Shown here piece after piece: positions 6,508 to 35,234 of a DNA stretch of 64,000 nucleotides. Below the pieces are notes generated by a model. It did not search any database and was not told the DNA's origin. It saw nothing but the letters and a program-made list of their open reading frames with translations. The position numbers and the translations under genes are program-made. The stretch is from sequence record NC_047884.1. One strand, given 5' to 3'. Numbering within the stretch: position 1 is the stretch's first letter; each line of letters begins with the position of its first letter. Origin of the DNA: Escherichia phage saus132.

Positions 6508-6512
6508 AAATT

Positions 6513-6606: not shown

Positions 6607-6622
6607 AAATTTATGAATATAT

Positions 6623-7205: not shown

Positions 7206-7213
7206 GTGAAATT

Positions 7214-7510
7214 TTACTGAACACTGCACTGATACACTTGTTTGATACGTGTCACTGACTTCTTAGTTGGATTGATAGAAGAACCTTGCCACCAACGTGA
7301 TTCTGAGCTGAGAACAGCACCAGGAACAGCTTGTTCTTTTGGCAGAACAATATCAAAACATTGCTCACCCATATTATCTTTAATGTGTGACCAAATATCC
7401 AAAGTAAATCGTTCTAGCTTATTACAAACTTGAACTTGACAAAGTTCCTGTTGTGGAGCAGCAAATACAGAAGTAGATACTAGAGTCAATGCAAGTACAA
7501 TGCGTTTCAT
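7214..7510 (-). CDS. small secreted protein (98 aa) with cleavable signal peptide
   Basis: MKRIVLALTLVSTSVFAAPQQ signal-like N-terminus; start moved to ATG after SD GAGAGAGG (track start is a TTG inside the UTR). Confidence 0.5.
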   Translation of the reverse strand: MKRIVLALTLVSTSVFAAPQQELCQVQVCNKLERFTLDIWSHIKDNMGEQCFDIVLPKEQAVPGAVLSSESRWWQGSSINPTKKSVTRIKQVYQCSVQ

Positions 7511-7540
7511 ATTTGATTCCTCTCTCAAATTTATAAATAT

Positions 7541-7569
7541 ATTATACAGAAATTTTCTATATTAAGCAA
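7541..7569 (-). promoter_or_regulatory. early promoter cassette
   Basis: Minus strand -35 TTGCTT, 17 bp, -10 TATAAT, then ATATATTTATAAATTTGAGAGAGG UTR with SD. Confidence 0.65.
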
Positions 7570-7616
7570 GTGAAAATTTCTGTATAATAGCCCTCTAAGC
7601 GAGGGCTATAACTACT

Positions 7617-8309
7617 TTATTTGTTAACGCGTACAAAGTATCCTTTATAGGCTCCCATAATAGAGTTACCTAAGAATACTAGCCACATTGCTAGGATTGC
7701 ATAAGATGCACCTGTAGATTGAGCAGTTACAAGCCAAATGTATACAGTACCAATGTTAATAGCAATCCAGATCAGCCATTGTTCAGCATATTGTTTGACC
7801 ATAAGCCACATAGCAATCACACTACCAACCGCAGTAAATGCGTCAAGCATTGGGAATGGATCAGCGGTAGTAGCAAGGAAGCTGCCGTAACCTAAAGTAG
7901 CTACTGCTAGAATCCCTAGAGTCAGCAGAGCTTGGGCTTTAGTCAGAACCTTAGTTGGAACATCTGGCAGATTACTTGGCTTATTTTTATGCCATAAGTA
8001 CATTCCATAAAACTGCATAGGAACGTAGTATAGCAGGTTTAGTGCAGCGTTACCATAAAGATCTGCGTTTAAAGCTGTAATACCATATGTAAGAACACCC
8101 ACTAAGCCCCAAATATAGTTGGAAACACGTCCTTTTGCAACCAGAATAACACAAACCACATTGGTTATTGCAGTAGCCCAATCTAGAGCTGTACCATTAT
8201 AGTTTGCTAAACTAATGAAGACAACCGCTATGAACAGCCACAGATATTCCAGAGGTTTCCAGTTTTTAAAGTCATTTACGAGATAGTTAGTCATATTAAA
8301 ACTCTCCAA
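7617..8309 (-). CDS. pnuC: PnuC-like nicotinamide riboside transporter (230 aa)
   Basis: Size and multi-helix hydrophobic profile typical of PnuC; directly downstream of and overlapping the NadR-like gene. Confidence 0.65.
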   Translation of the reverse strand: MESFNMTNYLVNDFKNWKPLEYLWLFIAVVFISLANYNGTALDWATAITNVVCVILVAKGRVSNYIWGLVGVLTYGITALNADLYGNAALNLLYYVPMQFYGMYLWHKNKPSNLPDVPTKVLTKAQALLTLGILAVATLGYGSFLATTADPFPMLDAFTAVGSVIAMWLMVKQYAEQWLIWIAINIGTVYIWLVTAQSTGASYAILAMWLVFLGNSIMGAYKGYFVRVNK

Positions 8310-9351
8310 CGTTAAAGTGATGAATCAGCCAGTCTACTGCGTTTACTGCTTCGTCCATACGAACTTTGTAGTCCGGGGAGTCGATGTAAACAGTACGCCC
8401 TTCAGGGAACTGATTTGGAAATTCTTTCTTCATCTGCTCGAACAGTTCAGAAGTAATTGAACGATCGGAGTTAATACGTAAACCATCATCTACCCACTTG
8501 ACAGTAGGCGCTAGAACAATTACTAAATCGTAATGTTCTTCTTTTGCAATTGCTGTAACCACAGGGTTCTTACTATGTTCATAAAGTCTGTGGTAGAACT
8601 CAGTAATAAAAGCATTTGTATCCACAAACATGATCTTATTTGCAGTACGTTCTGCTTCAAACTCTAGCTCTTTGTGTCTGAACGCAATTTTACTATAGTC
8701 TTCGCTGGTAAGCAGATTTTCGTTACCAACTAGATCAACTTCACAATACGTTCGGCCATATTCTTCTACCCACGAAGTGTTGTATAGCTTCGCAAGGTAT
8801 TTTGTTAAAGTAGTCTTTCCTGAGCTTTCAGTCCCAATGATTACAACCTTACGCACGTAATCTTTACGAACTACGCTAGGAAGAAACTCCCAATACTTCA
8901 TAAGATCATTACGAATCATTGTAGCTGAGATTGGAACACGAGTCCGATCAGAATCTACAATATAATGACCAAACTTCGGCAGATATTTCTTATATTCTGC
9001 ATCATAGTCTAGTTCGCTAGAGAAAATGGTGATCTCAGGCAAATGTCCGTAATTTTCATTAAGGATTCTAGCATATTCCGGCCAACCATTCGGATATTCA
9101 GGAATATCATCTTCAATAGTGTACTCTACCGAAATGTGCTCAATATCCGCGTAAGTTTGTTCTAACCAACGAAGTCGATTCTTTAACTGTAATACTTCCT
9201 GATCACGTGTGTTCTGCTTATCCAACCAACGATTATCATGACTAACTACAACAATAACTCGTTCACACATAGTTGCTGCTGTGTTTATTAGGTTAATATG
9301 ACCACGCGTTAATGGTGCGAACTTACCAATTACTAGACCAGTCTTAATCAT
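8296..9351 (-). CDS. nadR: NadR-like bifunctional NMN adenylyltransferase / ribosylnicotinamide kinase
   Basis: N-terminal GKFAPLTRGH nucleotidyltransferase motif; C-terminal P-loop GTESSGKTTL; start taken at ATG after SD, not the track start inside the promoter. Confidence 0.75.
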   Translation of the reverse strand: MIKTGLVIGKFAPLTRGHINLINTAATMCERVIVVVSHDNRWLDKQNTRDQEVLQLKNRLRWLEQTYADIEHISVEYTIEDDIPEYPNGWPEYARILNENYGHLPEITIFSSELDYDAEYKKYLPKFGHYIVDSDRTRVPISATMIRNDLMKYWEFLPSVVRKDYVRKVVIIGTESSGKTTLTKYLAKLYNTSWVEEYGRTYCEVDLVGNENLLTSEDYSKIAFRHKELEFEAERTANKIMFVDTNAFITEFYHRLYEHSKNPVVTAIAKEEHYDLVIVLAPTVKWVDDGLRINSDRSITSELFEQMKKEFPNQFPEGRTVYIDSPDYKVRMDEAVNAVDWLIHHFNVGEF

Positions 9352-9381
9352 ATTTGATTCCTCTCTCAAATTTATAAATAT

Positions 9382-9410
9382 ATTATACAGAGAATTTAGC
9401 ATTCAAGCAA
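9382..9410 (-). promoter_or_regulatory. early promoter cassette for nadR-pnuC operon
   Basis: 29-nt block identical to the cassette at 7541; -35 TTGCTT, 17 bp, -10 TATAAT. Confidence 0.65.
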
Positions 9411-9562
9411 TCGAATTTTTTAACTTTTTAGTGGAAAAAATCTCAAGGCATTTAGTGGTAGCACGTTGTTGCTACAATAATAGTATATGATTCTAAAGAA
9501 TTAAAGAATTAAATACTAAAGACCTTAGTTGAATAACTTATGGGCTTTTCTTTTGCCTTAAA

Positions 9563-9601
9563 TACAGAAAAGCCCGCGCTCTCGGAGGAAACGCGGGCTT
9601 A
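9563..9601 (-). terminator. rho-independent terminator after SPFH gene
   Basis: GC-rich hairpin AAGCCCGCG...CGCGGGCTT then U-run on minus strand. Confidence 0.7.
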
Positions 9602-9623
9602 TTTCGAAGATTACGTGTAACTA

Positions 9624-10568
9624 TTACTTATTACGCATATCCATAATCATCTGGCCATCATAACCAGTACCTACAACAGTCTGAGGAACGCCACCCTGAT
9701 ATTTTTCAGCGCGTTTCATATCAACTTCCAGCTGTTTCCAGCGAATCATCTCTGGAGTGATGGTACGCTGCAGAGCGGTGTTAGCTTCAGCTTCTTTCTT
9801 AGCCGCATACAGTTTAGCATCTGCGTCACGTTCGTTAGCTACTGCCATATTTTCACGAGCAGAACGATCAGCCTCAGCTTGCTTAACTTTCTGCTGTGCT
9901 TCTTGTTCAACACGAGCTAGTTCAGCTTTTGCAGCGTTAACTTGTTCTTCACGAACTTTGGTGTTTTGTACCTGTTCCATGATTACCGGTGGCAGAGTAA
10001 TATCCTGAAGGAATACTTGCTTAACGGTGTAGCCATAAGGACGCGCATACTCTTCTACTTCTTGCTGAATAGCGGTTTGCAGTTGAGCCTGAATCTTAGC
10101 GTCGAACAGATCTTGTGCTTTTGGTACAGACTTACCAAACTCACGAATCGTAGACAGCATCTTCTCTTCAACGTACTTGTTCAGAGCTTGATCCTGAGTA
10201 CCTGCGTTAACACGGTTCATAGGAGCTTTAGCACCATCAAACTGCAACATAACGGTAATGTCAACTGTAGACTTAAACTTATCCTGGCTAGGAACCTGAA
10301 GTTTATCCAGTTTCATAGAAATATCTTTCGTACTAAAAGTATCAAAAGAGGCGAATGGGTTGACAATATGGAACCCCGGCAATACAGGATTAGGACTAAC
10401 TTTACCCAGGAAAGTCTGAGTTTTAACCGTACCGTCCTGAACAACTGTATAGGAATTGAGAGCCAGAATAAGAGCGCCAAGACCAACTACAGCACCAACA
10501 CCCCAACGTTTAATAGTACGAATTACTTTTTGATCGGAAGTCAGTTCTTTAGTGTTTTTAGTAAACAT
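9624..10568 (-). CDS. SPFH/band-7 (HflK/C, prohibitin-like) membrane protein
   Basis: N-terminal TM helix, central SPFH-like region, C-terminal Ala/Glu/Gln-rich coiled coil; rho-independent terminator downstream. Confidence 0.6.
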   Translation of the reverse strand: MFTKNTKELTSDQKVIRTIKRWGVGAVVGLGALILALNSYTVVQDGTVKTQTFLGKVSPNPVLPGFHIVNPFASFDTFSTKDISMKLDKLQVPSQDKFKSTVDITVMLQFDGAKAPMNRVNAGTQDQALNKYVEEKMLSTIREFGKSVPKAQDLFDAKIQAQLQTAIQQEVEEYARPYGYTVKQVFLQDITLPPVIMEQVQNTKVREEQVNAAKAELARVEQEAQQKVKQAEADRSARENMAVANERDADAKLYAAKKEAEANTALQRTITPEMIRWKQLEVDMKRAEKYQGGVPQTVVGTGYDGQMIMDMRNK

Positions 10569-10579
10569 ATATTTCCTTA

Positions 10580-10780
10580 TTATTTAGAAGAGTTAGCTAC
10601 TACAGTTACTTTAGTTGCAGAAATAAACAGGCTAGCATCCACAGCAAATTCAGGAGCTTTGATATCTCCGTTATGAAATATGACTATACCGGAGACTACT
10701 TCAAATGCTAGCGCTGTAACATCGGTGGTATTTACTTGTGAATGTTCACCTACTACTTTTACTATATATCGTGTTTTCAC
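10580..10780 (-). CDS. hypothetical protein (66 aa)
   Basis: Short ORF between SPFH gene and tRNA-Arg. Confidence 0.35.
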   Translation of the reverse strand: MKTRYIVKVVGEHSQVNTTDVTALAFEVVSGIVIFHNGDIKAPEFAVDASLFISATKVTVVANSSK

Positions 10781-10806
10781 TTTATTTTCCTAGCAGTTAA
10801 TAAAAT

Positions 10807-10881
10807 TGGCCGAGGTGACAGGATTCGAACCTGCATAAAGGAATTTAGAAGACTCCTGCCTATCCCTTAGACTACACCCCG
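10807..10881 (-). tRNA. tRNA-Arg (UCU)
   Basis: Acceptor CGGGGTG/CACCTCG, anticodon arm GGAGT-CTTCTAA-ATTCC, T arm GCAGG-TTCGAAT-CCTGT, CCA encoded. Confidence 0.7.
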
Positions 10882-11740
10882 TTTAGGTATTTTTAAGAAC
10901 TCTTATAAAAGCTCTTAAAGATACCCGACGGTAGGTAGGGTCAGCCCCCTCAGATTAAGCTCTGCAGCCCTTCCGTCAGACAATATCTTCCAGTTTAAGT
11001 CAGGGTGACTTTGTGGTTATGTTCTCCGTATGTGAAGAACTCGGTTAGGCTTAGGTCATGACTCCCAGCCTACTGCTGCCGCTCAACAGGAATTATCGCG
11101 AATTACCTGTACTATTGGGCACCATTAGTGACATCTCTCATGTCAGCGTTTCCCACTCTCATATTCACGCGGTCTGTTAGAATCGCACCTCCGATTTTCG
11201 ATGCGAAGCTGGATGCCTAGTCTCAGGTTAAACGGGGCACACACTAGGCAGTGATCCCGAGTTCCGAGTTTGGTTGAGGCCGTCAGGTTTCCTCGTGGTT
11301 TAGCTGTTTCGATTCTAACCTAATACTGATCAGGTGGCGTACCTCCTGAACTGTCATAGTATGTACTCCAGCAGCGAATGCTTATCCGGTATAAGCCCGA
11401 GTTATCTGATTCTTTCCGACCGCAGGATTCGAACCTGCATCTTCCACCAGTTACGGTTTGATATTACCGTTTATACTAGGACGGCAGTGTTATCACATAA
11501 GTCAGTTCGACACCCCACTAACATAAACTAGAGAAGAGTTTACGAGATTTCGGGACAGCTCCCGAGTTTTCCGCAGATTTTCAGTTCCCTATCAATAGCA
11601 ATAAGCGTTAGCTCGTAGCCTCTCTCAGAGTACTTACTAGTCTCCAACTCACCGACTCTATTCAGTGGAATAGCTATCCTAGTAGGAATCACTAAACTCA
11701 CTCAGCGTAATCGGCTCGCTGTTCTCTAATTTATGAATCT

Positions 11741-21750: not shown

Positions 21751-24144
21751 TTATAATTGACAACCACCAGATGCGCATCCAGCAGCAGCTTCCTCTCCTG
21801 CACCTCCACCATTTTCAGTGTTGAAGTTTGCATAATAAAAGGTTTTCCAACCGTACTTAACAGCAGTCATAAAGTCACGAACTACTACTGGGCCGGGAAT
21901 GATTTCATTCTCGAACTTGGTGTAGTCATAGTACATATTCGTACTGATAGACTGGCTGAAGAATTTCTGCATGGTTGCTACCCATTTGATCCACTCGATA
22001 CGATCTACATCATAAGCCAGTTTATAGCTCATTAATGTATCCCAATCAGTTGCACCTGGAGCAATTGCAATTACTTTATTCACTGCACTACCCTTGATAG
22101 ATACGATCTTACGGGGCGGTTCGATAGAGTTAGTAACACCTAGCAGTACAGAGGAACTTTCACCTGGCATCTGAGCAGTCAGAACAGAGTTGCGCATACC
22201 ATATTTCAGAATATCTGCACGCAGAGATTCCCAATCCATTTCTAGACCTACAGTTACCAGTTCATCAACAGTTTTCTTGTACGTGTCGATTACCAGAGTT
22301 CCTTGCGAAGGCTTAGTACGATTAAACCAGTCACATGCACCTTGTTCTTTAGCCAGACGTACAGAGGCTTTATGTAGGAAGTAGGACAGCTTTTCAGCTT
22401 CACGGTGAATCCAGTTACGTGCTTCAACACCTTCGTAAGCCAAACCTTCTGCTGCCATTGCACCTGCTGCGTTCATCAGACCAATACCAACGTTACGACG
22501 TTTCTTAGCCGTGTATTCCATAGTTGGGAATGGATAATCCTGAATCTCGATGATTGTATCAACGAATTTCAGAAGGATGTAGCAAGTTTTCTCCCATTCA
22601 GCCAGAGATTCCATGCGGCCTAGTACAACACCACCTAAGTTACACAGAGATACTTCACCAATATCTTCTGGACGCATATCGTCTAACTGATCTTGGGTTT
22701 TATACAGTTCCGTAACGTGATGGAATGGACGGGTTGGCTGAGTAATTTCAACACAAAGGTTGGTCATACGAATCGGGTCAAGGAAGTTACCATGACGGTT
22801 AGATTCACCAATGTGATGAGCATACATACGCCCTGTTTCCATACGGATACGTAACCAAGTATCTAGGATTTCTTTTGCAGAGATTCTAGGAGCTGCTGGA
22901 ATTGTTTTTCCTTCGTGGTCGATCTTTGTAAGAGATGCCACACGTTTCTCCGCTGCCACGTAGATTTCTTCAAACTTAGCCTCATCTTCACCATAAAACG
23001 CTTCATGAACTTCTGGTGCGTAGAAGTAGGACATTAGCGTAATATCTTCGTTTTTCAGGTAACGTTTTAACAGAAGGTTGTTAAAGCTCAGAGAATAATC
23101 CATCTTATCGATTTTATTCTCGTCTGTAGCACGTTGCTGCTTAACCTGCATCAACTGAATGATTTCAGGATCGAAGTATGGATAAGACACAGTAGCAGAA
23201 CCGCCACGGGTTTGCTGAGTGTTAGCTTTTACTGAACGGTCAATGTGTCGATAATATGGCAGTTTTCCGGAATGCGGGAATGCCCCATTTCGCACCGGAT
23301 CAGCAATTGATCGGCTTTCAAGATGATACCCGATTCCCGCTCTGGCTGCGACCATTTTGAAGACGATATGCTCGGCTGTGTCGATTGAATCCAGCGTGTC
23401 AGTGGAATCCACGAGGCAACAACTAGCAAATCCACGGTCACTAGAGCGCAGGCCAACCAGTGGCGGCGTAGGAACGTTGATTTTGTGGAGCGACATTGCA
23501 TTGTAGAGGTCGATTGCATCTAGAATTGTCCAGTTAGGTTGAGATAACATCGCCATTGCCATACCCATGTAGGCAAACTGCGGGGTTTCATAAATTTCAC
23601 CAGTTGCAATATTACGACGAGAATACTTGTCGAAGAACTGTTTCAGTCCACCACTGGTGAATAAACGATCGCGATCATGATCAATAACTTGGTTCAGAGC
23701 GTCAAACTGATCATCGCTAATCCATGCACTCATGTCTTCCCAAGCGCCAACACGAACCATATGATCGTGGAAGAAACGCAGAGAAGGTGGTTCGAAGGAA
23801 TCATATAGGCGTTTACGCATCTGCGCAAGACGTAATTCCTTTGCTGGCACATCGTATGCTGGGTTATCTTTGATAAGACCTTCAGCGGCTTTAATTAACG
23901 CATCCATTAGGGTATCGGAATCTACAACACCTTTAGGTAGAGTTTTTTGAGCAGACATAGTGATGGCTGACCAGCTCACATCAACTGTTTTGCAGCCATA
24001 TACTGCCCAACCATTGAGTTTTTCAGGAGCAAAGTCTTCTACAGTACCGTCACGTTTAATTACTTTTGTAATTCTAAAGTCCATTGCGGTTTCCTTTTTA
24101 TAGTTCTCAGGATTTAGATAGTATTCTACTTTGTTTTGAGTCAT
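21751..24144 (-). CDS. nrdA: ribonucleotide reductase class I large (alpha) subunit
   Basis: 797 aa; NLCVEITQP active-site motif; C-terminal Cys pair. Confidence 0.85.
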   Translation of the reverse strand: MTQNKVEYYLNPENYKKETAMDFRITKVIKRDGTVEDFAPEKLNGWAVYGCKTVDVSWSAITMSAQKTLPKGVVDSDTLMDALIKAAEGLIKDNPAYDVPAKELRLAQMRKRLYDSFEPPSLRFFHDHMVRVGAWEDMSAWISDDQFDALNQVIDHDRDRLFTSGGLKQFFDKYSRRNIATGEIYETPQFAYMGMAMAMLSQPNWTILDAIDLYNAMSLHKINVPTPPLVGLRSSDRGFASCCLVDSTDTLDSIDTAEHIVFKMVAARAGIGYHLESRSIADPVRNGAFPHSGKLPYYRHIDRSVKANTQQTRGGSATVSYPYFDPEIIQLMQVKQQRATDENKIDKMDYSLSFNNLLLKRYLKNEDITLMSYFYAPEVHEAFYGEDEAKFEEIYVAAEKRVASLTKIDHEGKTIPAAPRISAKEILDTWLRIRMETGRMYAHHIGESNRHGNFLDPIRMTNLCVEITQPTRPFHHVTELYKTQDQLDDMRPEDIGEVSLCNLGGVVLGRMESLAEWEKTCYILLKFVDTIIEIQDYPFPTMEYTAKKRRNVGIGLMNAAGAMAAEGLAYEGVEARNWIHREAEKLSYFLHKASVRLAKEQGACDWFNRTKPSQGTLVIDTYKKTVDELVTVGLEMDWESLRADILKYGMRNSVLTAQMPGESSSVLLGVTNSIEPPRKIVSIKGSAVNKVIAIAPGATDWDTLMSYKLAYDVDRIEWIKWVATMQKFFSQSISTNMYYDYTKFENEIIPGPVVVRDFMTAVKYGWKTFYYANFNTENGGGAGEEAAAGCASGGCQL

Positions 24145-24207
24145 TATGCAAGTACAATTTTTCAGATAAAAAGAGCCCGGATATTTTCATACCCAGGCTC
24201 GTCTGTC

Positions 24208-24450
24208 TTACCATTTAAGTTTATCGGCTTGATCAAGTAACTGCTGTTGTATTTCTCGGTTAAAGAGAATATCTACAGAAGTACTTAGTTCATTATAGTT
24301 GAAAGGCCGATTTGGATTAGAGGCTACAATTTTCCACGCTAGGGTAGTCTTAGGACTTTCTTCTCCTTCCTTACGTGTAATCATATTAGCAGCACTCAAT
24401 GAAGTACGGTGGATCTTAGTTTTGCGGTGCAGATGTACGACGTTTCCCAT
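24208..24450 (-). CDS. hypothetical protein (80 aa)
   Basis: ORF between nrdA and phoH. Confidence 0.4.
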   Translation of the reverse strand: MGNVVHLHRKTKIHRTSLSAANMITRKEGEESPKTTLAWKIVASNPNRPFNYNELSTSVDILFNREIQQQLLDQADKLKW

Positions 24451-24451
24451 A

Positions 24452-25213
24452 TTACACCTTCCCCATATCCTTAAAGATATCGTAGAATGCTTTAGACTCT
24501 GGTGAGCGAACGTTGTCGATCAGTTCGATCATAGAGAAAGGAGAGTTTTCGTACTTCTCATAGACTTCCATAAGAAGTGCTAGACCTGAATCACCCTTGA
24601 TGTCTTTCTGAGCTATATCTCCACAGATAATTAGACGACAATCTTGTCCGACACGAGTCAAGAGACAGATCATTGCTTCAACGGAGATATTCTGAGCTTC
24701 ATCGACAATTACATAGGAGTTGTTGAAAGTTCGGCCACGGGCATGTTCGATAGCCAGGAATTTGATTTTCTGACGTTCGACATATCCTTTGTAGGCGTGA
24801 TCACCGATTGCCCATTTCATGCCATCGGCTATTGGTTCCAACCAAGGCTCTAGCTTTTCTGCTAGATCACCTGGGAGCATACCAAGAGATTTACCTAGAG
24901 GTTCGTTCGGACGCACGAGGATCACTTGCTCAATATCTGAGTGAATGTCTACGAGTTCCTGAGCTGCAAGAACGGACGGAATAAAGGTTTTACCAGTACC
25001 TGGTTCACCGATACCCACAGTCACTGTGTTGTTCTTGATCATATTGATATATGATTTTTGCTCACGGTTTTTACCAACTAGGGATTTAGCAACTGGATTG
25101 GCGTAATCACCAGAGAAATCTGCTTGAATTACGTTACTCTCATACTTGTTGCCACGCTTTCTTGAACCATTGCGGTTCTCTCTTTTTTGACGTGCTTTTC
25201 CCATAAATAACAC
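24452..25213 (-). CDS. phoH: PhoH-like ATPase
   Basis: Walker A GEPGTGKTF and Walker B VIVDEAQN. Confidence 0.85.
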   Translation of the reverse strand: MLFMGKARQKRENRNGSRKRGNKYESNVIQADFSGDYANPVAKSLVGKNREQKSYINMIKNNTVTVGIGEPGTGKTFIPSVLAAQELVDIHSDIEQVILVRPNEPLGKSLGMLPGDLAEKLEPWLEPIADGMKWAIGDHAYKGYVERQKIKFLAIEHARGRTFNNSYVIVDEAQNISVEAMICLLTRVGQDCRLIICGDIAQKDIKGDSGLALLMEVYEKYENSPFSMIELIDNVRSPESKAFYDIFKDMGKV

Positions 25214-25277
25214 TCCTATAGTGTACTTCGCTAACAGAGGATCAACAAAAAGATCTTGTTTATCAACTTACAAATAT

Positions 25278-25306
25278 ATTATACCAATATATGCGGGAGA
25301 AAGCAA
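25278..25306 (-). promoter_or_regulatory. promoter for phoH-nrdA block in divergent intergenic region
   Basis: Minus strand -35 TTGCTT, 17 bp, -10 TATAAT. Confidence 0.6.
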
Positions 25307-25498
25307 CTACAATTTTAAATAAGCCTATGATATTGCATTTAAATAAAAAATTTGCTTGCTTTTATTGGGAGATGTATGGTACTAGATAATCATTTTATAT
25401 CGCGTACACGGGCGCGTGATTATACTATTTTTAATAGAGGTTGGCAAATAAAATTTTTTGACTCAGATCATGTTACAGAACTTTATAGTAAAATATTG

Positions 25499-25527
25499 TT
25501 GACATCCGCCTTCGAATGAGTTATAAT
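25499..25527 (+). promoter_or_regulatory. promoter for nrdD
   Basis: -35 TTGACA, 17 bp, -10 TATAAT, SD GAAGGAGGG. Confidence 0.65.
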
Positions 25528-25556
25528 AGTAGTCTTAGTTAGAGAAGGAGGGTATA

Positions 25557-27431
25557 ATGAATCGCAATGAAGAACTAAAATATAAAGGAATGCAGTCCTT
25601 AATTCGAAACTGCAAAGAAATTATCGAAGGTTCAGCAGATGAAGAGCTGCTGTTTAATAATGCCAATAAGCCCTCAGAACGTTTCCCTACACAAAGGGAT
25701 ATGCTTGCAGGGGAATTGAGTAAATATCTGATTCTGGAAGAAATGCCAATCCAGATTCGAAATGCTCACATGATTGGTGATATTCACTTCCATGATGCTG
25801 ATTACGCTGCGTTAGGTATGACTAACTGTTGCCTGGTTGCTTTGGAAGATATGTTGAAGAATGGTATGAAGGTTGGTAATGCTGAAATCAGTACGCCAAA
25901 CTCCATTACTACTGCGGCTGCTATTACAGCTCAGATTATCACTCAGGTTAGCTCACACCAATATGGTGGTACTTCTGTAGACCGATTAGATGAAGTATTG
26001 GCTCCTTATGTTCGTAAGTCTTACGATAAGAATCATGCGTTTGCAAAACGTTGGACTAAGGATGAAGCCAAAGCATCTGTAATGGCTACGGAAATGACTG
26101 AGAAAGAAGTTTACGATGCCTGTCAAGGTCTAGAGTATGAAATCAATACGATGTTCAACTCTAATGGTCAGAGTCCATTTATTACCTTTGGTTTTGGTCT
26201 AGGAACTTCCTGGGAAGCACGTCTTGTACAGAAAGCAATCTTAGAAGTGCGTATGGATGGTTTGGGTATCAATAAACGTACAGCTATCTTCCCTAAACTG
26301 GTATTTGTTTTGCGTGATGGCGTAAATATGAAACCTGGTGATGTTAACTATGATATCAAGAAGTTAGCTATGAAATGTACTGCTGAACGTATGTATCCTG
26401 ACTACATCAGTTATGATAAGGTTGTAGAAGTTACGGGAGACTACAAAGTCTCTATGGGCTGTCGTTCATTCCTGGCTGCTGCGGAAGATGGTGAAACTTC
26501 TGGTCGTAACAACTTAGGCGTTGTTTCCGTAAACCTTCCTCGAATCGCTATCGAAGCGGAAGGAAATATTGATCTATTCTTCGATCTGCTTGAGCTGCGT
26601 GTGGATACCGCGTTAAAAGCATTGGAGTGGAGGGTTGATCGCTTAAAATACATCCAAGCTAAAGCTGCGCCCATCCTCTATATGTCAGGAGCCTTTGGAT
26701 TACGTCTGGGGCCAGATGAATATGTGTTTGATCATTTCTACAAGCGTGCTTCTGTATCTCTAGGATATATTGGTTGCCACGAAATGTTGCAGCTCATGTT
26801 TGGTAAAGATGTAGATACAATGTCTGAGTCTTGTATCAAGTTCGTTCAACGTGTGCTACAATACATGCGTGATCGTGCTGATCAGAAGAAGGAAGAGACT
26901 CAATTAGGGTATAGTCTGTATGCTACACCATCTGAATCTCTATGTGATCGCTTCTGTCGTCTAGATCGTGAGTATTTCCCAGAGCATGAAGATATTCTGG
27001 CTAAAGGATATTACACTAACTCTCATCACCTTGATGTGGAGCGTAAGGTTGCTCCGAACGTGAAGTTCGATTATGAGTCTAACTTTACCCCAATTGCTTC
27101 TGGTGGGTGCATTTCCTATGTGGAATTGCCTGATATGAAACGATTCCCAGATGCGCTGGAGTGGGTTATTAACTATGCTGCAAGTAAAGTTCATTACTTC
27201 GGTATTAATACTCCAGTAGACTCTTGTGGGGAATGTGGATTCTTGGGTGAAACTATAGCTTCTGAGGATGGTTTCAAATGCCCAATTTGTGGCAACCATG
27301 ATCCTGAGACTCTTGAGGTAACTCGTCGAGTTTGCGGATATCTTGGAAATCCAGGTGCTCGTCCATTTAACCCAGGTAAACAACATGAGGTTATGGGTCG
27401 AGTGAAACATCAGGACATTCGCGCTAAATAA
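25557..27431 (+). CDS. nrdD: anaerobic ribonucleoside-triphosphate reductase
   Basis: C-terminal glycyl-radical motif RVCGYLG and CPICGNHD zinc site; SD GGAGGG. Confidence 0.85.
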   Translation: MNRNEELKYKGMQSLIRNCKEIIEGSADEELLFNNANKPSERFPTQRDMLAGELSKYLILEEMPIQIRNAHMIGDIHFHDADYAALGMTNCCLVALEDMLKNGMKVGNAEISTPNSITTAAAITAQIITQVSSHQYGGTSVDRLDEVLAPYVRKSYDKNHAFAKRWTKDEAKASVMATEMTEKEVYDACQGLEYEINTMFNSNGQSPFITFGFGLGTSWEARLVQKAILEVRMDGLGINKRTAIFPKLVFVLRDGVNMKPGDVNYDIKKLAMKCTAERMYPDYISYDKVVEVTGDYKVSMGCRSFLAAAEDGETSGRNNLGVVSVNLPRIAIEAEGNIDLFFDLLELRVDTALKALEWRVDRLKYIQAKAAPILYMSGAFGLRLGPDEYVFDHFYKRASVSLGYIGCHEMLQLMFGKDVDTMSESCIKFVQRVLQYMRDRADQKKEETQLGYSLYATPSESLCDRFCRLDREYFPEHEDILAKGYYTNSHHLDVERKVAPNVKFDYESNFTPIASGGCISYVELPDMKRFPDALEWVINYAASKVHYFGINTPVDSCGECGFLGETIASEDGFKCPICGNHDPETLEVTRRVCGYLGNPGARPFNPGKQHEVMGRVKHQDIRAK

Positions 27432-30709: not shown

Positions 30710-31138
30710 ATGTTCAATAATATTTTCATGAAAGAGGTAAATCCTATGCTCCTCAACTTCTGGCGTTCTCTCCCTAATGGTATGTATAATGAAACCATCA
30801 ATCTGCTTAAGATTTGGTGTGAGAATAATGATATCTTCTTATCCTTTAAAGGCCCACTAGAGGAAGCTCCATGTATTGGAGTTAGTGTGGATTTAGGTGA
30901 GGGAGTAGAAGAGATTGTAGACTGGAAAGAACTCGATGAAATGGGTCTGGTTTTTGCCTTAAATCATAAGCTGTTTATGCCTGCAAATCACCGTCTTATT
31001 GTAAATTATCGCACTGGTGAAGCTCCTGCTTTCCAGGTAAATGAACGTGAGGGCTGGTCATATTCGCCCGAGGAAGTAAATGAGGGGATTCAGAAACTTC
31101 GTCGTTTCGGGTATATGATCCCAGGTTTAACTGCTTAA
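30710..31138 (+). CDS. hypothetical protein (142 aa), paralog of next gene
   Basis: Shares FALNxxxF...ETGExP and LxRxGxxxPGL motifs with 31148-31543. Confidence 0.5.
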   Translation: MFNNIFMKEVNPMLLNFWRSLPNGMYNETINLLKIWCENNDIFLSFKGPLEEAPCIGVSVDLGEGVEEIVDWKELDEMGLVFALNHKLFMPANHRLIVNYRTGEAPAFQVNEREGWSYSPEEVNEGIQKLRRFGYMIPGLTA

Positions 31139-31147: not shown

Positions 31148-31543
31148 ATGGAACAAGTATTTTGGCGTCAGATAGATCCTAGTTTGGTAGAGCGTGCTGA
31201 GGGGCTCCTTGCACGTTGGTTGGGGGTTGACAAGGTTAGTGTAACATTTCCGTTTACTTCTGTAACAGACCCTAGTGTAGGTGTCTTTGTGGACGAAGAT
31301 GAAGATGATGGTTGGGAAGCTGACTGGAATGAATTGTCCAGTATGGGCTTGATTGTTGCCCTCAACTTCTCTATATTCCATCCACGTGGCTTAGCCATTA
31401 CACGTGACCCCGAAACTGGTGAATCCCCTTATCTTTTGCAAGTAGAAGATGATATTTGGGAGTACACCGAAGATATTCTCGAAGAAGCTAAAGGTCAATT
31501 AAATCGCATTGGGATCTATGTTCCAGGCCTAAATGATGATTGA
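31148..31543 (+). CDS. hypothetical protein (131 aa), paralog of previous gene
   Basis: Tandem paralog; SD AAGGAGG. Confidence 0.5.
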   Translation: MEQVFWRQIDPSLVERAEGLLARWLGVDKVSVTFPFTSVTDPSVGVFVDEDEDDGWEADWNELSSMGLIVALNFSIFHPRGLAITRDPETGESPYLLQVEDDIWEYTEDILEEAKGQLNRIGIYVPGLNDD

Positions 31544-31634
31544 TTTTCATTAGTCCAATCCTGATTACCGAGTCATTTTGGCTCGGTTTTCTCTGTGCTC
31601 AAAGACACTGATAGCACCTTCGGAAAAATTTTAC

Positions 31635-31663
31635 TTGCAGGATGCTCAAAATCTTGATATAAT
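31635..31663 (+). promoter_or_regulatory. promoter with conserved UTR-like sequence but no ORF for about 500 nt
   Basis: -35 TTGCAG, 17 bp, -10 TATAAT. Confidence 0.55.
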
Positions 31664-32159
31664 ATTTATATTGAATTGAGAGACATTAGTAAAAATTGAT
31701 TTTGCTAATTTTTCTTGTTTACAATCCGCAATACGGAACAGTTAGGCTGCCCCATTAAGGGTTGTTTTAACTATTACTAGTGTTTATACTGCATTAGTTA
31801 ATTATCAATTAAGTGATCTGCGTACCCTGAATTCGGAAAGGTAAATCCAAACCGTGCATATTTAGCTCGTTATATAGGCAGAGCTTTATATGGGGGTGCG
31901 AACGAAAAGAGCAGCGAATGGTGACACGTCCAGTAGCCACCTACCAATAGGATAGTGAGGGCAATCAGAATCGGCTTAGCGGCCAATGACCTAGGTTCTG
32001 ATCTGGATAAGAGTTAAGAGAGCGCAGCACTGAGGTATGATAACTTATTCATACTGCTTGATGATGATTAATGTTTGTGTAAATGGTAGTAATAGTTGTT
32101 CTATTCTTTTGAATAGTCCTAAAGAAAGATATCCGAATAACCAACATAGGAGTATTGTT

Positions 32160-34949
32160 GTGTTCTCAATCCTACAAGGTCACGCAGGATTTTCCAGAGA
32201 TAAAGCCACTGGCATCTGGAAAGAGATCAAAGTGGAAGACTACACCTTTGCAAAGCGATTCTCTAAAGAGCATCCAGAAGGTAAACCAGCTTCCATGCCC
32301 TTCAAATTTGATGTACTTGAAGAACTTGACCCGCAAAACCTTGCTGAAATGTTACCTATCATGCGTCGTCTTACCAAAGACCCGCATATTGTAGCTATTC
32401 GTGGTAAATGTTTAGCTCCAAAAGATAATGTGCGTCGTACCAGAGGAAACTTTAATGTATCCAATCCTAGTCATATTATTGCTATGGACGTGGATGGTAT
32501 TGTAGATACTGGTGGCTATGACAAGTTTAATCTTGTCGGCATGGCACGTCATATTATTAAGATGTTGAATAGTATTAGTGAGGATATGTTTCCTCTTGAT
32601 GCAGGGTTTATTGCTCATGCATCGTCTTCGGCTGGCTTAAAACCAGGTATCCGAATGCACTTAATGCTAGAATCTAATGTCAAGGTAACGCAGGGGCAAT
32701 TAAAATTCCTATTTACATCCATCAATGACAGTAGTAAGCAAAAGTATGGCTTTGATATTGCTGACTTAGCTTATTATTCTTCTGTTCAGCTTCACTATTT
32801 CGCAGATCCCTTATTTGATGATGGTATAGTCGATCCGTTTAAAGCGGAGAATAAACCACGTCTTGTGTATGTTAAGGGTTCGAAAGTGAATCTACCCAAT
32901 AACCTAGTTGACTTTGAAACAACTAGAGGTGAGTTTAAAGAAGAATTCTACTCCTTACTTGACCAAATTAAAGGCAAGAAGGCTGCATCTGATAAAGTGG
33001 AAGAAACCATCAGCGAACTAGAAGAAGCTGAGGATGGGGTGTACCTGCGTATTATCCCAAAACTTTATCACAGAGCGTTAGAAGATGGTGTTGACTTTAC
33101 GTGGTTAGAACGTGAGATTAAACCAGCTTTATCTGAGTATATTGCGACTAAAGATAATAGTCGTAATATTCAAGATTACTTTAATAACGGTCGTAAGCAG
33201 GCTCTCAAAGCCTTTGTAAATAACTCCAAACGTGAGATTCCACCAAACTTAAAAGGTGTACCATTAAAACGTCTAGACACAGATTCTCCACCAGAAGTTC
33301 CATACCTGAAAATTAACATTGTACCACCAAAAGGACATTTAACATTTGTTAAGGCAAGTCTTGGTACGGGTAAAACTACAGCAGTAACTAAGTGGCTAGA
33401 TGCAGGTGTTCTTCCAGGGAACTTTATTGCAATCACAAATACTAGGGCACTTGTATCTTCTAACGCGAAGAAATTCGGTGCTGGCCAGTATGATAAGTCA
33501 GTTGATATGCTGAACTTCAAACGTGGTGCTATTGATCGTATGTCTTCAACTATTCACTCTATCCATAAGTTCAAGAGCTTTGTGGGTCAGATTGATACGA
33601 TCTTTATTGATGAATGTGATGCAGTAATGAACGATCTGTTATTCGCTCCGGTTGTTAAAAACCGTCGTGAATGTATTCAGGTTCTTCGTGATATTCTTAT
33701 TACTGCAAAAACGGTGATCTTATCTGATGGGGATATCAGTGCAGAAACGATTGAAGCCTATGGTTCTTTGATTGATTTTGATAAACCGGTTGCGTTCTAT
33801 AATCATCACCGTAAAATGCTGGCAAAAGCTCATGCTTATGAATTCCCTGACGAATCCAGTATTTGGGTTGCACTTCAAACATCTCTAGAGATGGGTGAGA
33901 AGTCAATCCTAGTATCTGACTGTGGACCAGATGAACTGAATGAAAAGGGAATGGCATTACGTCGTAATACGGGTGCGTTAGTTAAAGAAATTCACTCAAA
34001 CTCTACGTCTGATGTAGATATCCGTCGTATTCTGGATTATACAACTAATGAGCTAATTGATCAACAGATTGATTGTTTGTTATGTAGTCCATCTGTAACG
34101 AGTGGTGTTGACTTTAACTATTTTGATAACGTATTCGTAATCACTAGAACCTCAAACCAAGCGCCAAACATGCGTTTTCAAGCAATCAGGCGCGACCGTG
34201 GTGCTCAGAACATTTATTATTTTATTGATAAATCTACGAGTGGATTTTCTGCGGGTTCCGAGCAATATAATATTGACGAAGGTTGGATTGAGTTAGCCCA
34301 ACAACTGTACGCACGTCGCCGTGAGCTGGAATCTAGAAACTATACCAGTACTTTGCGTTATTATCTTCTCGATCAAGGTGCAACTATCGATATTTTCAGC
34401 GAAAGCTGGGGAACTATCGAAGGTGCAGGCAAAGAGTATATAGAAGAGCGAATCAAAGCTATTTTGCACTCAACTCCTGAATATTGCGCACCACGTCATG
34501 CAGACGCCTATGAAGCCAAGTTACTTCTGGTTCGCTATTATCATCTGGATTCTATTAAAGATGTAATAGTGGAACACGTTGAACAGTATATTAAGGATAA
34601 ACCAAACGATAGAGCTGCATTCTTCCATAAGATGCACGACATGTTCTGGGAAGATATTAAAAAGTGTTCAAACGTAACAATCAAACCGTTTATCGAAGCT
34701 CTTAAGAATAAGAAGAAGGATTTCTTCCTTAAGACAGGTCAGAGCGCTAACCCAAAATATGCTCGTATGTATCTTGGCATGATGGGTATCGGTAAAGATC
34801 TGGATACGGAAAAGATTGTGGACTGGTACAGAACTTACTGTAAGATCGAATGTATGCCGATTCCAGTTAAGTTTATGACAGATGAAGAACGTCAGATGCA
34901 TGAGGAAGCTCTTGCTGAATTGGGGGCTAGAAATGACAGCGAAGAATAA
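32160..34949 (+). CDS. putative replication helicase / origin-binding protein (about 930 aa)
   Basis: Walker A FVKASLGTGKTT and Walker B IFIDECDA; start set at GTG 32160 after SD AGGAG (track start ATG 32037 has no SD). Confidence 0.55.
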   Translation: MFSILQGHAGFSRDKATGIWKEIKVEDYTFAKRFSKEHPEGKPASMPFKFDVLEELDPQNLAEMLPIMRRLTKDPHIVAIRGKCLAPKDNVRRTRGNFNVSNPSHIIAMDVDGIVDTGGYDKFNLVGMARHIIKMLNSISEDMFPLDAGFIAHASSSAGLKPGIRMHLMLESNVKVTQGQLKFLFTSINDSSKQKYGFDIADLAYYSSVQLHYFADPLFDDGIVDPFKAENKPRLVYVKGSKVNLPNNLVDFETTRGEFKEEFYSLLDQIKGKKAASDKVEETISELEEAEDGVYLRIIPKLYHRALEDGVDFTWLEREIKPALSEYIATKDNSRNIQDYFNNGRKQALKAFVNNSKREIPPNLKGVPLKRLDTDSPPEVPYLKINIVPPKGHLTFVKASLGTGKTTAVTKWLDAGVLPGNFIAITNTRALVSSNAKKFGAGQYDKSVDMLNFKRGAIDRMSSTIHSIHKFKSFVGQIDTIFIDECDAVMNDLLFAPVVKNRRECIQVLRDILITAKTVILSDGDISAETIEAYGSLIDFDKPVAFYNHHRKMLAKAHAYEFPDESSIWVALQTSLEMGEKSILVSDCGPDELNEKGMALRRNTGALVKEIHSNSTSDVDIRRILDYTTNELIDQQIDCLLCSPSVTSGVDFNYFDNVFVITRTSNQAPNMRFQAIRRDRGAQNIYYFIDKSTSGFSAGSEQYNIDEGWIELAQQLYARRRELESRNYTSTLRYYLLDQGATIDIFSESWGTIEGAGKEYIEERIKAILHSTPEYCAPRHADAYEAKLLLVRYYHLDSIKDVIVEHVEQYIKDKPNDRAAFFHKMHDMFWEDIKKCSNVTIKPFIEALKNKKKDFFLKTGQSANPKYARMYLGMMGIGKDLDTEKIVDWYRTYCKIECMPIPVKFMTDEERQMHEEALAELGARNDSEE

Positions 34950-35166
34950 AAAGTGGGAAACAAGGAAGTTTCCCGTAAAAGAACGTAAAACTTCTGTTTA
35001 CGATACTGCGGAGAAACTATGTAGGGTTGTACCACCTCGTCTCGCGGGCATCCCTAACGTCTCCATATGGTTACTTAAACAACGGAAGACTCGTGTGTCT
35101 CTTCGCATTGGCTTTGAGTTAGATAAAGTCTATGCTGAACTTGCTTCTTTGCTCAAAGAATCGTAA
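34932..35166 (+). CDS. hypothetical basic protein (78 aa)
   Basis: ORF overlapping helicase stop. Confidence 0.35.
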
Positions 35167-35174
35167 AAATTTAT

Positions 35175-35203
35175 TTGCTTTCAGAAAAATTTTTCTGTAT
35201 AAT
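35175..35203 (+). promoter_or_regulatory. promoter
   Basis: -35 TTGCTT, 17 bp, -10 TATAAT, conserved UTR and SD. Confidence 0.65.
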
Positions 35204-35234
35204 AGATTCATAAATTTGAGAGAGGAGTTTAAAT

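What the first reader, a model, noticed from the sequence alone, without database searches (positions are those of the whole stretch)
31664..32159. About 500-nt ORF-free leader between a promoter cassette and the helicase/origin-binding gene
Seen in sequence: promoter at 31635-31663 with the conserved UTR start, a second promoter-like element (TTGCTA...TACAAT, about 31699-31730), then a GC-richer stretch (about 31850-32030) with no ORF; the most plausible helicase start (GTG 32160 with SD AGGAG) lies about 500 nt downstream. Inference: structured regulatory leader, small RNA, or a replication origin next to its binding protein.
Basis: partly seen in the sequence, partly recalled or inferred. 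Interest (0 to 1): 0.35.

Follow-up and report, generated by a model that had tools for sequence, protein, structure and literature searches.

The report
Large structured RNA leader in T5 phages
The 500-base gene-free stretch before the replication helicase gene D2 of this T5-like phage encodes a large, intricately folded RNA that is conserved in shape, but hardly in sequence, across T5-like phages of enteric bacteria and matches no RNA family in Rfam.

Summary
The window is a T5-like phage (100% identical to phage chee130_1 over the 1 kb tested). A T5-type early promoter (31626-31663) is followed by about 490 nt with no conserved ORF. The helicase gene D2 starts at GTG 32160, not ATG 32037.

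The leader is a structured RNA on the D2-sense strand:
- a 5' hairpin;
- a hairpin carrying an invariant 25-nt core (31731-31755);
- a roughly 35-bp AU-rich stalk (31768-31808 / 32058-32098);
- a GC-richer multi-helix core closed by that stalk.

Five sequence types from four phage genera keep the same helices, although their central 320 nt are only 61-68% identical in forced global alignment. On 28 unique sequences, 94% of cells pair, against 34-47% when partners are slid. Twenty-one of 43 pairs show changes on both sides, and 0 of 500 shuffles reach this. Abundant G.U pairs place the structure on the + strand.

There is no Rfam match, no host similarity, and no copy in 185,579 bacterial and archaeal genomes. 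Iterons, DnaA-box clusters and a local skew switch are all absent.

Function is inferred, not shown. I favour a cis-acting, probably RNase III-processed, leader of D2 mRNA. A trans-acting RNA or a primer/origin RNA remain live rivals. The "second promoter" is not supported.

The parts
31567..31594 (+). Intrinsic terminator of the upstream gene (31148-31543): a 9-bp hairpin followed by a T run
   Evidence: Annotated as a terminator in T5 records. Conserved, with compensatory changes, in Klebsiella and Pectobacterium phages.
31626..31663 (+). T5-type early promoter: A/T tract, -35 TTGCAG at 31635-40, 17-nt spacer, extended -10 TGaTATAAT at 31655-63. The inferred transcription start is near 31670.
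   Evidence: T5P32 annotation. In phages carrying an HNH-endonuclease gene insertion, a different promoter sits at the same position before the 5' hairpin.
31678..31716 (+). H0: 5'-terminal hairpin of the transcript (GAGAGACAUUAGUAAAA...UUUUGCUAAUUUUUCUU)
   Evidence: Folds. A 5' hairpin at the same place, with a different sequence, is seen in types C, D, E, F and G.
31696..31725 (+). Judged not to be a promoter, because it is the 3' arm of H0 plus the 5' arm of P1.
   Evidence: 9/12 match at chance frequency. Split by an 88-nt insert in 51 phages. Not conserved in Klebsiella or Pectobacterium types.
31721..31765 (+). P1 hairpin carrying the invariant core AUACGGAACAGUUAGGCUGCCCCAU (31731-31755). 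It has an outer helix, GG/CC pairs, an AA bulge, a CAGU/GCUG stem and a variable 3-nt loop.
   Evidence: Klebsiella phages show a G-C to A-U compensatory change inside the core and a different outer helix (CCGAGCAU/AUGCUUGG).
31768..31808 (+). P2 stalk, 5' arm (about 35 bp with small bulges, 20% GC)
   Evidence: Inverted repeat I1. Folds. Five of the 9 basal pairs have changes on both sides. The extended stalk covaries in the non-A types.
32058..32098 (+). P2 stalk, 3' arm (30% GC)
   Evidence: Same as for the 5' arm.
31812..32031 (+). GC-richer (48%) multi-helix core. P3 31812-23/32022-31. Three-way junction 31822-28/31893-99, with hairpins at 31834-54 and 31857-92. Hairpin c 31911-25. Py 31928-33/32003-08. 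Hairpin d 31936-62. P4 31964-72/31994-32002, capped by the GGCUUAGCGGCC hairpin at 31973-84.
   Evidence: Six of 9 P3 pairs and 7 of 8 P4 pairs have changes on both sides. Five of the six double compensatory changes between the window and T5 subtypes fall here (31821:32024, 31930:32006, 31937:31961, 31965:32001, 31966:32000).
32034..32055 (+). P5 hairpin between the 3' arms of P3 and P2. In types B-E its loop is the conserved AAGUUGCCACC; type A has an unrelated hairpin there.
   Evidence: (32035:32054 G-C to A-U).
32101..32116 (+). P6: small hairpin CUAUUC-UUUU-GAAUAG just 3' of the stalk. It has no U tract, so it is not a terminator.
   Evidence: Klebsiella CUAUC/GAUAG and DU_PP_V CUUUCC/GGAAAG are read. 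No terminator was found.
32117..32147 (+). Variable linker between the RNA domain and the ribosome-binding site. No structure is predicted for it.
   Evidence: Alignment A1.
32148..32162 (+). Shine-Dalgarno AGGAG (32148-52), 7-nt spacer, GTG start codon (32160-62) of D2
   Evidence: Active T5 D2 was expressed from this start (PMC3632103).
32160..34949 (+). D2 gene (929 aa): bipolar SF2 helicase, annotated 'replication origin binding protein'
   Evidence: PF02399; phrog_3712, aligned end to end. PMC3632103.
32037..32159 (+). Spurious 41-codon in-frame extension, used as the D2 start in some GenBank records
   Evidence: Sw2 and PMBT31 annotations; closed by stop codons in all other types.

Best explanation
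The gap is the template for a large structured RNA of about 390 nt within a 490-nt leader. I found no description of this RNA family in Rfam 15 or in the literature held here. It is transcribed from a strong T5 early promoter as the 5' part of the D2 helicase mRNA.

Shown by the evidence: the RNA has a 5'-terminal hairpin and a hairpin carrying an invariant 25-nt core. A 35-bp AU-rich stalk follows, closing a compact GC-richer core of about 10 helices that includes the universally kept GGCUUAGCGGCC hairpin. A short linker then leads to the ribosome-binding site and GTG 32160.

Inferred: the domain acts in cis on D2 expression. The long double-stranded stalk is a likely RNase III substrate. Cleavage there would detach the compact core, possibly as a stable RNA. 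It would leave a D2 mRNA with a short, open leader, so that synthesis of the replication helicase depends on folding, processing or factor binding of this RNA.
For: Identity and context. The window is a T5-like phage. The promoter belongs to the T5 early-promoter family. No terminator lies between the structure and D2.

Start codon. It is fixed at 32160 (PMC3632103).

Structure.
- The + strand folds with z = -4.66, against -2.78 for the - strand.
- RNAalifold finds 48 pairs, 26 of them with compensatory changes.
- The named helices P1, P2, P3 and P4 are 94.0% paired, against 34-47% for slid partners.
- 21 of 43 pairs have changes on both sides, against 4-10 for slid partners, and 0 of 500 shuffles reach this.
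- About 17% of cells are G.U wobbles, including invariant ones. This assigns the structure to the D2-sense strand.
- Six further double compensatory changes separate the window and T5 subtypes, against only two disruptions.
- A full fold of the non-A types has the same topology.
- The spacing from the core to the P4 hairpin is constant at 213-223 nt across sequence types whose central domains are only 61-68% identical.

Transcription matters. When an HNH-endonuclease gene is inserted upstream, a different promoter is placed at exactly the same point before the 5' hairpin.

Not coding. There is no conserved ORF.

Conserved synteny. A 590-600-nt gap precedes D2 in Sugarlandvirus and Myunavirus. 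The regions at the same position in Providencia and Proteus phages are also strongly structured, with z = -3.3 and -3.6.
Against: There are no expression, 5'-end or processing data, so RNase III cleavage and the cis effect are pure inference from the 35-bp stalk.

The ribosome-binding site is not visibly sequestered by a conserved pairing.

Proteus phage Stubb has a second perfect sigma-70 promoter between the structured region and D2. D2 there does not depend on the leader's promoter, which fits an RNA with a function of its own.

Twelve or more helices with invariant islands are more than a processing site or translational operator normally needs.

Homology of the Providencia and Proteus regions to this RNA is not demonstrated (nhmmer negative).
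Confidence: 0.45

Rival explanations
1. A trans-acting stable noncoding RNA that merely shares a promoter with D2. The compact core is released from the primary transcript and works on its own, for example as a scaffold, as a decoy against a host defence or host enzyme, or as a ribozyme. This would resemble other large 'ornate' RNAs carried by phages.
For: - The complexity and invariant islands exceed what simple cis control needs.
- The stalk-closed architecture resembles processing stalks that release stable RNAs.
- Proteus phage has its own perfect promoter for D2 downstream of the structured region and another perfect promoter in front of it.
- An optional 88-nt module and wholesale swapping of central types behave like a self-contained RNA gene.
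Against: - No terminator or defined 3' end.
- Always directly upstream of D2 and in the same orientation.
- No complementarity or similarity to E. coli sequences.
- No second site in the window matching the invariant core.
- No resemblance to any Rfam family.
Confidence: 0.27
2. The leader is a transcription-dependent replication origin. Its transcript is a structured primer precursor, as with ColE1 RNA II or the promoter-driven R-loop origins of T4 and T7. It would prime or open DNA next to the gene of the putative initiator helicase D2.
For: - T5 origins were mapped by electron microscopy near the centre of the molecule (Davison preprint 10.1101/866236, citing Bourguignon 1976).
- The leader lies at 48.5-48.9% of the T5 genome and at 52% in chee130_1.
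- D2 has a herpesvirus origin-binding-protein-type helicase domain and was proposed as an initiator (PMC3632103).
- There is a strong promoter, AT-rich flanks and a structured transcript.
Against: - No iterons or tandem repeats.
- No DnaA-box cluster.
- No GC-skew inflection here. The skew and transcription switch lies about 7 kb to the left, at roughly 46% of the genome, which is equally 'central'.
- Vibrio T5-like phages with D2 homologues have a long upstream gap that shows neither excess predicted structure nor repeats.
- The only origin-like protein-binding motif is a single UL9-box-like 9-mer, confined to type A (read).
Confidence: 0.18
3. The conserved pairings act in single-stranded DNA, for example as a primosome-assembly or single-strand initiation signal, rather than in RNA.
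For: Covariation with G.T wobbles on one strand is formally compatible with a folded DNA strand. The locus sits next to replication genes.
Against: At 390 nt it is far larger than known single-strand initiation signals. A strong promoter is always kept, or replaced, immediately upstream. A 5' hairpin at the transcript start makes sense only for RNA.
Confidence: 0.04
4. There is nothing special here: a spacer, a decayed gene, or the N-terminal part of D2 starting at ATG 32037.
For: Some GenBank records start D2 at the ATG and annotate small ORFs in the gap.
Against: The upstream frame is closed in all other types. Homologues and the PHROG profile start at 32160. There is no conserved ORF. Compensatory evolution is incompatible with neutral spacer.
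Confidence: 0.02

Closest known systems
Large 'ornate' noncoding RNAs of bacteria and phages (ROOL, GOLLD, and also HEARO, OLE, raiA)
   Same: Several hundred nucleotides long, with many helices and invariant islands in otherwise variable sequence. GC content stands out from an AT-rich genome. Phage-borne, as ROOL and GOLLD often are. Function unknown when first found. (The comparison rests on my own knowledge of these families.)
   Different: No match to any of their Rfam models. It lies in the 5' leader of a replication gene rather than beside tRNA clusters. Its distribution is narrow, limited to T5-like phages of Enterobacterales. No independent 3' end is visible.
ColE1 RNA II, and the promoter-dependent origins of T7 (phi1.1A/B) and T4 (oriF, oriG)
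   Same: A strong promoter drives a long transcript whose fold (RNA II) or persistence (R-loop) starts DNA synthesis. The locus is next to replication genes and near the mapped centre of the genome. (From my own knowledge.)
   Different: No origin has been mapped here. There is no antisense regulator, no evidence of an RNA-DNA hybrid, and no DNA repeats.
RNase III processing stalks (rRNA precursors, T7 early mRNA sites, lambda N leader)
   Same: Long-range pairing of flanking sequences into a helix of more than 20 bp that encloses a compact RNA or precedes a gene.
   Different: Cleavage is untested. The enclosed element is not a known RNA. The stalk is interrupted by several bulges.
Structured mRNA leaders that control translation of phage replication genes (T4 gene 32 and gene 43 operators), and riboswitches or T-boxes
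   Same: Cis position in a 5' UTR, directly upstream of the regulated gene.
   Different: It is 5-10 times larger than phage translational operators. No known aptamer is present (Rfam negative). No conserved pairing with the ribosome-binding site was seen.
Herpesvirus oriS/oriL with UL9 origin-binding protein
   Same: D2 shares the UL9-type helicase domain (PMC3632103).
   Different: There are no paired or repeated binding boxes. The similarity of D2 to UL9 covers the helicase region (PF02399 match, residues 391-533), not a DNA-binding domain.

Membership tests
Any Rfam 15 RNA family (including RNase P, tmRNA, 6S, ROOL, GOLLD, HEARO, OLE, raiA, riboswitches, group I/II introns, ribozymes) | Covariance-model match at or near the gathering score | tested here: not met
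   The gathering scan of the window found only tRNAs. A permissive scan of 31450-32300 gave only a terminator-like hit at E = 0.35. A permissive scan of types B-G found nothing in the domain.
Conserved structured RNA (generic) | Base pairs maintained by compensatory substitutions beyond controls | tested here: met
   94% of cells paired against 34-47% with slid partners; 21 of 43 pairs with changes on both sides; 0 of 500 shuffles. Supported.
Conserved structured RNA (generic) | Strand specificity (G.U pairs) and thermodynamic stability above shuffles | tested here: met
   About 198 of 1190 cells are G.U or U.G, including invariant ones. z = -4.66 on the + strand against -2.78 on the - strand.
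Conserved structured RNA (generic) | Actually transcribed | not testable with these tools
   Only inferred, from a family-type strong promoter and from promoter replacement at the same point.
Bacterial or phage DNA replication origin of the iteron/DnaA type | Clustered repeated initiator-binding sites (iterons or DnaA boxes) | tested here: not met
   No tandem repeats. Only chance-level two-copy repeats. One 8/9 DnaA box, with window-wide counts at chance level.
Bacterial or phage DNA replication origin of the iteron/DnaA type | Strand-composition switch at the origin | tested here: not met
   The cumulative GC-skew minimum is at about 24 kb of the window, not 31.7 kb, and it coincides with the switch in gene orientation.
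Transcription-primed origin (ColE1 RNA II-like or T4/T7-like) | Promoter-driven transcript forming a primer or R-loop at the initiation site | not testable with these tools
   A promoter and a structured transcript are present. The mapped T5 origin is 'near the centre'. There are no data on hybrids or initiation.
Independent small RNA gene | Own promoter and own terminator or defined 3' end | tested here: not met
   A promoter is present, but there is no intrinsic terminator between 31664 and 32160, nor in the Proteus or Providencia loci.
RNase III substrate | Helix of about 20 bp or more of double-stranded RNA | tested here: met
   The P2 stalk has 19 + 16 bp with small bulges and covaries. 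This is prediction only.
RNase III substrate | Cleavage by RNase III in vivo or in vitro | not testable with these tools
   No data. A literature search for T5 and RNase III found nothing relevant.
D2 / phrog_3712 'replication origin binding' helicase (the downstream gene) | Full-length match to the family profile from the proposed start codon | tested here: met
   phrog_3712 matches residues 1-926 to profile positions 1-927 of 927, E = 0. PF02399 matches at 391-533. The N-termini of seven homologues align at MFSIL.

The most novel reading that the evidence does not exclude
This may be a previously unrecognised class of large structured RNA specific to T5-like phages, whose compact core has an activity of its own. 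That activity could be a replication-initiation or primer RNA working with the D2 helicase at the long-sought central T5 origin. It could instead be a catalytic or scaffold RNA, or a decoy against host defence. In either case it would be more than a passive mRNA leader.
Probability: 0.4. Interest if true: 0.8.

Novelty: new member of a known kind. Interest (0 to 1): 0.62.

Why it matters
T5 has been a model phage for 70 years, yet its replication origin and the control of its replication genes are still undefined. A 390-nt RNA conserved by covariation sits at the centre of the genome, directly in front of the putative initiator helicase. It is driven by one of the strong T5 early promoters. 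That makes it a concrete, testable candidate for either role.

It would also add a new family to the short list of large structured RNAs of unknown function, in a genetically tractable phage-host pair where deletion, probing and cryo-EM are straightforward.

There is a practical consequence too. Many GenBank records mis-start D2 at an upstream ATG or annotate spurious small ORFs inside this RNA.

Tried and rejected
1. Metagenome scan with a 16-base core pattern. It gave almost only chance hits; two real copies (L079, L138) survived filtering.
2. Two-island pattern in viral contigs. It was too loose, and most of the listed loci are probably chance matches. I did not screen them.
3. First genome scan. 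It used a wrong gap range, so its null result is invalid. I repeated it with the correct 205-232 nt gap and found 0 hits.
4. Covariance model of a sub-domain. MAFFT misaligned the isolated Py/P4 sub-domain, and the full alignment (421 columns) exceeds the model builder's limits. No model was built.
5. Structure-aware MAFFT modes are not installed.
6. nhmmer profiles did not link the Providencia, Proteus or Vibrio upstream regions to the family. Their membership stays open.
7. An RNase P-like reading of the core (ACAGAAC..CCGGCU resembles the 3' strand of P4, from memory). Rejected, because Rfam showed no RNase P signal at E <= 10.
8. Pairing of the core GGAAC with GUUCU 3' of the stalk. It is kept only as a possible alternative. 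It shows only one-sided changes, whereas the local hairpin has a double change.
9. A UL9 box-like 9-mer (CGTTCGCAC, - strand of 31897-31905). It occurs only in type A and is treated as coincidence.
10. Bourguignon 1976 (PMC515544) is not held, so the exact EM origin coordinates could not be read.
11. Literature searches for any earlier description of this RNA found nothing.

Full report
**Context.** Over the 1,001 bases tested, the window is 100% identical to T5-like phage chee130_1 (Epseptimavirus) and about 92% identical to T5 itself. The gene downstream of the finding is T5 D2, a characterised bipolar SF2 helicase that is annotated 'replication origin binding protein' (PMC3632103). The gene upstream (31148-31543) ends with an intrinsic terminator at 31567-31594.

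**Observation check.**
- Promoter. The promoter is real by family resemblance. An A/T tract, TTGCAG, a 17-nt spacer and TGaTATAAT occupy 31626-31663. This is one of 14 such promoters in the window, against 0.01 expected by chance.
- Cassette. The conserved post -10 cassette recurs 10 times against 0.5 expected. Three T5 reference records annotate the promoter (T5P32) and nothing else up to D2.
- ORF-free stretch. The stretch lacks any ORF over 43 aa. The longest ORFs differ completely among the sequence types.
- GC content. GC rises to 47-51% at 31850-32000.
- Second promoter. TTGCTA and TACAAT are only 12 nt apart. The alternative TTGATT-18-TACAAT is a 9/12 match, and such matches occur at chance frequency here. 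The element is split by an 88-nt insert in 51 phages and is not conserved in Klebsiella or Pectobacterium phages. Its conservation in E. coli and Salmonella phages is explained by its being part of two RNA helices.

**Start codon.** Annotators disagree between ATG 32037 in Sw2 and PMBT31 and GTG 32160 in T5, chee130_1 and Lindwurm. Five results settle it in favour of 32160:
- tblastn alignments start at residue 1 of the GTG protein, even in Vibrio phages.
- Klebsiella and Pectobacterium phages have ATG exactly at that position.
- Seven homologues align from MFSIL, while the 41-aa extension has no counterpart.
- The PHROG profile aligns end to end.
- The upstream frame is closed by stop codons in every other type, in My1 directly before the ATG.

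Wong et al. purified active T5 D2 from the same start.

**What the leader is.** Aligning relatives shows nearly invariant 5' and 3' parts flanking a central 300 nt. That central part exists in distinct sequence types: A (window, T5), B (Lindwurm, DT57C), C (Klebsiella Sugarlandvirus), D (Pectobacterium My1) and E (Pectobacterium DU_PP_V). Their pairwise identity in forced global alignment is only 61-68%. All types nevertheless share short islands: the 25-nt core AUACGGAACAGUUnGGCUGCCCCAU, the sequence GGCUUAGCGGCC and, in types B-E, GAGAAGUG and the loop AAGUUGCCACC. The spacing between the core and the GGCUUAGCGGCC hairpin is almost constant at 213-223 nt.

The + strand folds much better than shuffled sequence (z = -4.66) and better than the - strand (z = -2.78).

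RNAalifold on 28 unique sequences finds 48 pairs, 26 of them with compensatory changes. I then named helices P1, P2, P3 and P4 and tested them with the covariation counter:
- 94.0% of cells pair, against 84.9% in column shuffles and 34-47% when partners are slid by 1-3 columns.
- 21 of 43 pairs have changes on both sides, against 4-10 for slid partners.
- 115 cells show a double change, against 6-19 for slid partners.
- 0 of 500 shuffles reach any of these measures.

Examples: P3 is CUGCGU/GCGCAG in types A and B, CUACAC/GUGUAG in DT57C, My1 and DU_PP_V, and CUAGAA/UUCUAG in Klebsiella. P4 is CAGAAUC/GGUUCUG, CAAAUC/GAUUUG, CCACA/UGUGG, AUACG/CGUAU or GUGCGGGU/ACCCUGCAC, depending on type.

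About 17% of cells are G.U wobbles, several of them invariant. These would be A.C mismatches on the other strand, so the structure belongs to the D2-sense strand. Within type A alone, the window and T5 subtypes differ by six fully compensatory double substitutions and only two disruptions. A consensus fold of the 16 non-A sequences gives the same topology.

**Architecture in window coordinates.**

| Element | Coordinates | Notes |
|---|---|---|
| H0 | 31678-31716 | 5' hairpin |
| P1 | 31721-31765 | hairpin carrying the core; the core is itself a stem with a variable triloop and a G-C to A-U swap in Klebsiella |
| P2 | 31768-31808 / 32058-32098 | stalk of about 35 bp, 20-30% GC |
| P3 | 31812-23 / 32022-31 | |
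| Three-way junction | 31822-31899 | |
| Hairpin c | 31911-25 | |
| Py | 31928-33 / 32003-08 | encloses hairpin d and P4 |
| Hairpin d | 31936-62 | |
| P4 | 31964-32002 | capped by the GGCUUAGCGGCC hairpin |
| P5 | 32034-55 | |
| P6 | 32101-16 | |
| Linker | 32117-32147 | variable; no structure predicted |
| SD | 32148-52 | AGGAG |
| Start | 32160 | GTG |

The core is 48% GC, against 39.9% for the window.

**Distribution.** The core motif occurs once per genome in 32 IMG/VR contigs, all of 96-123 kb, the size of T5-like genomes. It is absent from 185,579 bacterial and archaeal species genomes when searched together with the P4 hairpin at the right spacing. It has no similarity to E. coli genomes. 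No Rfam family matches in any type, and no paper describing it was found.

Providencia and Proteus T5-like phages have, at the same place, a strong promoter, a 5' hairpin and a 600-700-nt ORF-poor region. That region folds well (z = -3.3 and -3.6). It contains GCUUAGCGGCG or CCUUAGCGGG inside a helix of different sequence. Sequence profiles do not link these regions to the family, so I leave their membership open. Vibrio T5-like phages have a long gap that shows no excess predicted structure (z = +1.4) and has no repeats.

**Clues to function.**
1. A promoter directly before H0 appears to be required. In Shivani, 8sent1748 and Kenya-K15, an HNH-endonuclease gene insertion replaced the upstream sequence, and a different promoter sits at the same spot.
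2. No terminator separates the RNA from D2, so D2 is translated from this transcript.
3. The 35-bp stalk enclosing a compact core looks like an RNase III processing stalk. This is inference only.
4. In Proteus phage Stubb, a perfect 12/12 promoter heads the structured region. A second 12/12 promoter lies between that region and D2. This suggests the RNA has value beyond delivering D2 mRNA.
5. An optional 88-nt module between H0 and P1 occurs on both A and B backgrounds, once per genome. The RNA is therefore modular.
6. DNA-level origin signatures are absent: no iterons or tandem repeats, no DnaA-box cluster and no local skew switch.
7. The locus lies at 48.5-52% of the genome, where electron microscopy placed T5 origins 'near the centre'. 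However, the divergent-promoter and skew-switch zone about 7 kb to the left is equally central.

**Verdict.** That this is a conserved, large structured RNA on the D2-sense strand is well supported, at about 0.9. What it does is inferred.
- I favour a cis-acting leader, probably processed by RNase III, that governs D2 helicase expression (0.45).
- A trans-acting stable RNA comes next (0.27).
- An RNA-primed origin follows (0.18).
- A single-stranded-DNA signal (0.04) or a spacer or N-terminal extension (0.02) are unlikely.

It matches no family in Rfam 15 and no description was found in the literature held here. I file it as a new member of the known kind 'large structured RNAs and structured mRNA leaders'. 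Interest is moderately high, because T5 is a classical and tractable system and the element sits where the unidentified origin and the replication initiator meet.

Noticed in passing
window 1-11500, - strand: A cluster of 18-19 tRNA genes, typical of T5-like phages. Two weak Rfam tRNA hits (4606-4687 and 11414-11485) sit at the gathering score; the second is not called by ARAGORN.
   Followed up: no
L006 (DT57C) 1597-1693; equivalent to an insertion between window 31709 and 31710: An 88-97-nt insert flanked by the direct repeat TTTTTCTT lies between the 5' hairpin and P1 of the leader RNA. It is present once per genome in 51 phage records, on both type-A and type-B backgrounds. It is an optional module rather than a dispersed mobile element.
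   Followed up: partly
L007 (Shivani) 1016-1468; L207 and L208 216-668: A free-standing HNH homing-endonuclease gene is inserted between the upstream gene and the leader in some Tequintaviruses. It brings a different promoter (TTGCAA-17-TATAAT) that lands exactly before the 5' hairpin.
   Followed up: yes
window 30710-31138 and 31148-31543: The two genes just upstream are tandem paralogues of the same unknown-function family (phrog_2502, E = 7e-60 and 2e-58).
   Followed up: no
window 31897-31905 (- strand CGTTCGCAC): This 9-mer is identical to 9 of the 11 bases of the herpes simplex UL9 origin box I (CGTTCGCACTT, recalled from memory). D2 is the phage relative of the UL9 helicase. It is present only in type A (window, T5) and absent from types B-E, so it is probably coincidence.
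   Followed up: partly
window 31578-31679 (+), 31809-31940 (-), 32037-32159 (+): Annotation errors in public records. Small 'hypothetical proteins' are called over the terminator and promoter and inside the RNA (Sw2, PMBT31). D2 is started at the non-conserved ATG 32037 in several genomes.
   Followed up: yes
window about 24000-26000: The cumulative GC skew reaches its minimum here. T5-type promoters point leftward up to 25456 and rightward from 31626 (and 28238). This divergent-transcription zone, at about 46% of the phage genome, is another candidate for the 'central' replication origin.
   Followed up: no
L196 (Proteus phage Stubb) 705-733 and 1435-1464: Two perfect 12/12 sigma-70 consensus promoters bracket a roughly 700-nt ORF-poor, strongly folding region upstream of the D2 homologue. 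The motif GCCTTAGC occurs twice (1089-1096 and 1413-1420).
   Followed up: partly
window 35166-35222: A promoter closely resembling the classical T5 P_N25 promoter used in expression vectors (AAAATTTATTTGCTTTCAG...TATAATAGATTCATAAATTTGAGAG; resemblance from memory) precedes the gene at 35235.
   Followed up: no
window 31716-31727 versus 32161-32172: The 5' arm of P1 (UGUUUACAAUCC) is nearly repeated at the very start of the D2 coding sequence (UGUUCUCAAUCC). In principle this would let the D2 start region compete for the 3' arm of P1 (GGGUUG). The repeat is not conserved in Klebsiella or Pectobacterium types, so it is probably chance.
   Followed up: partly
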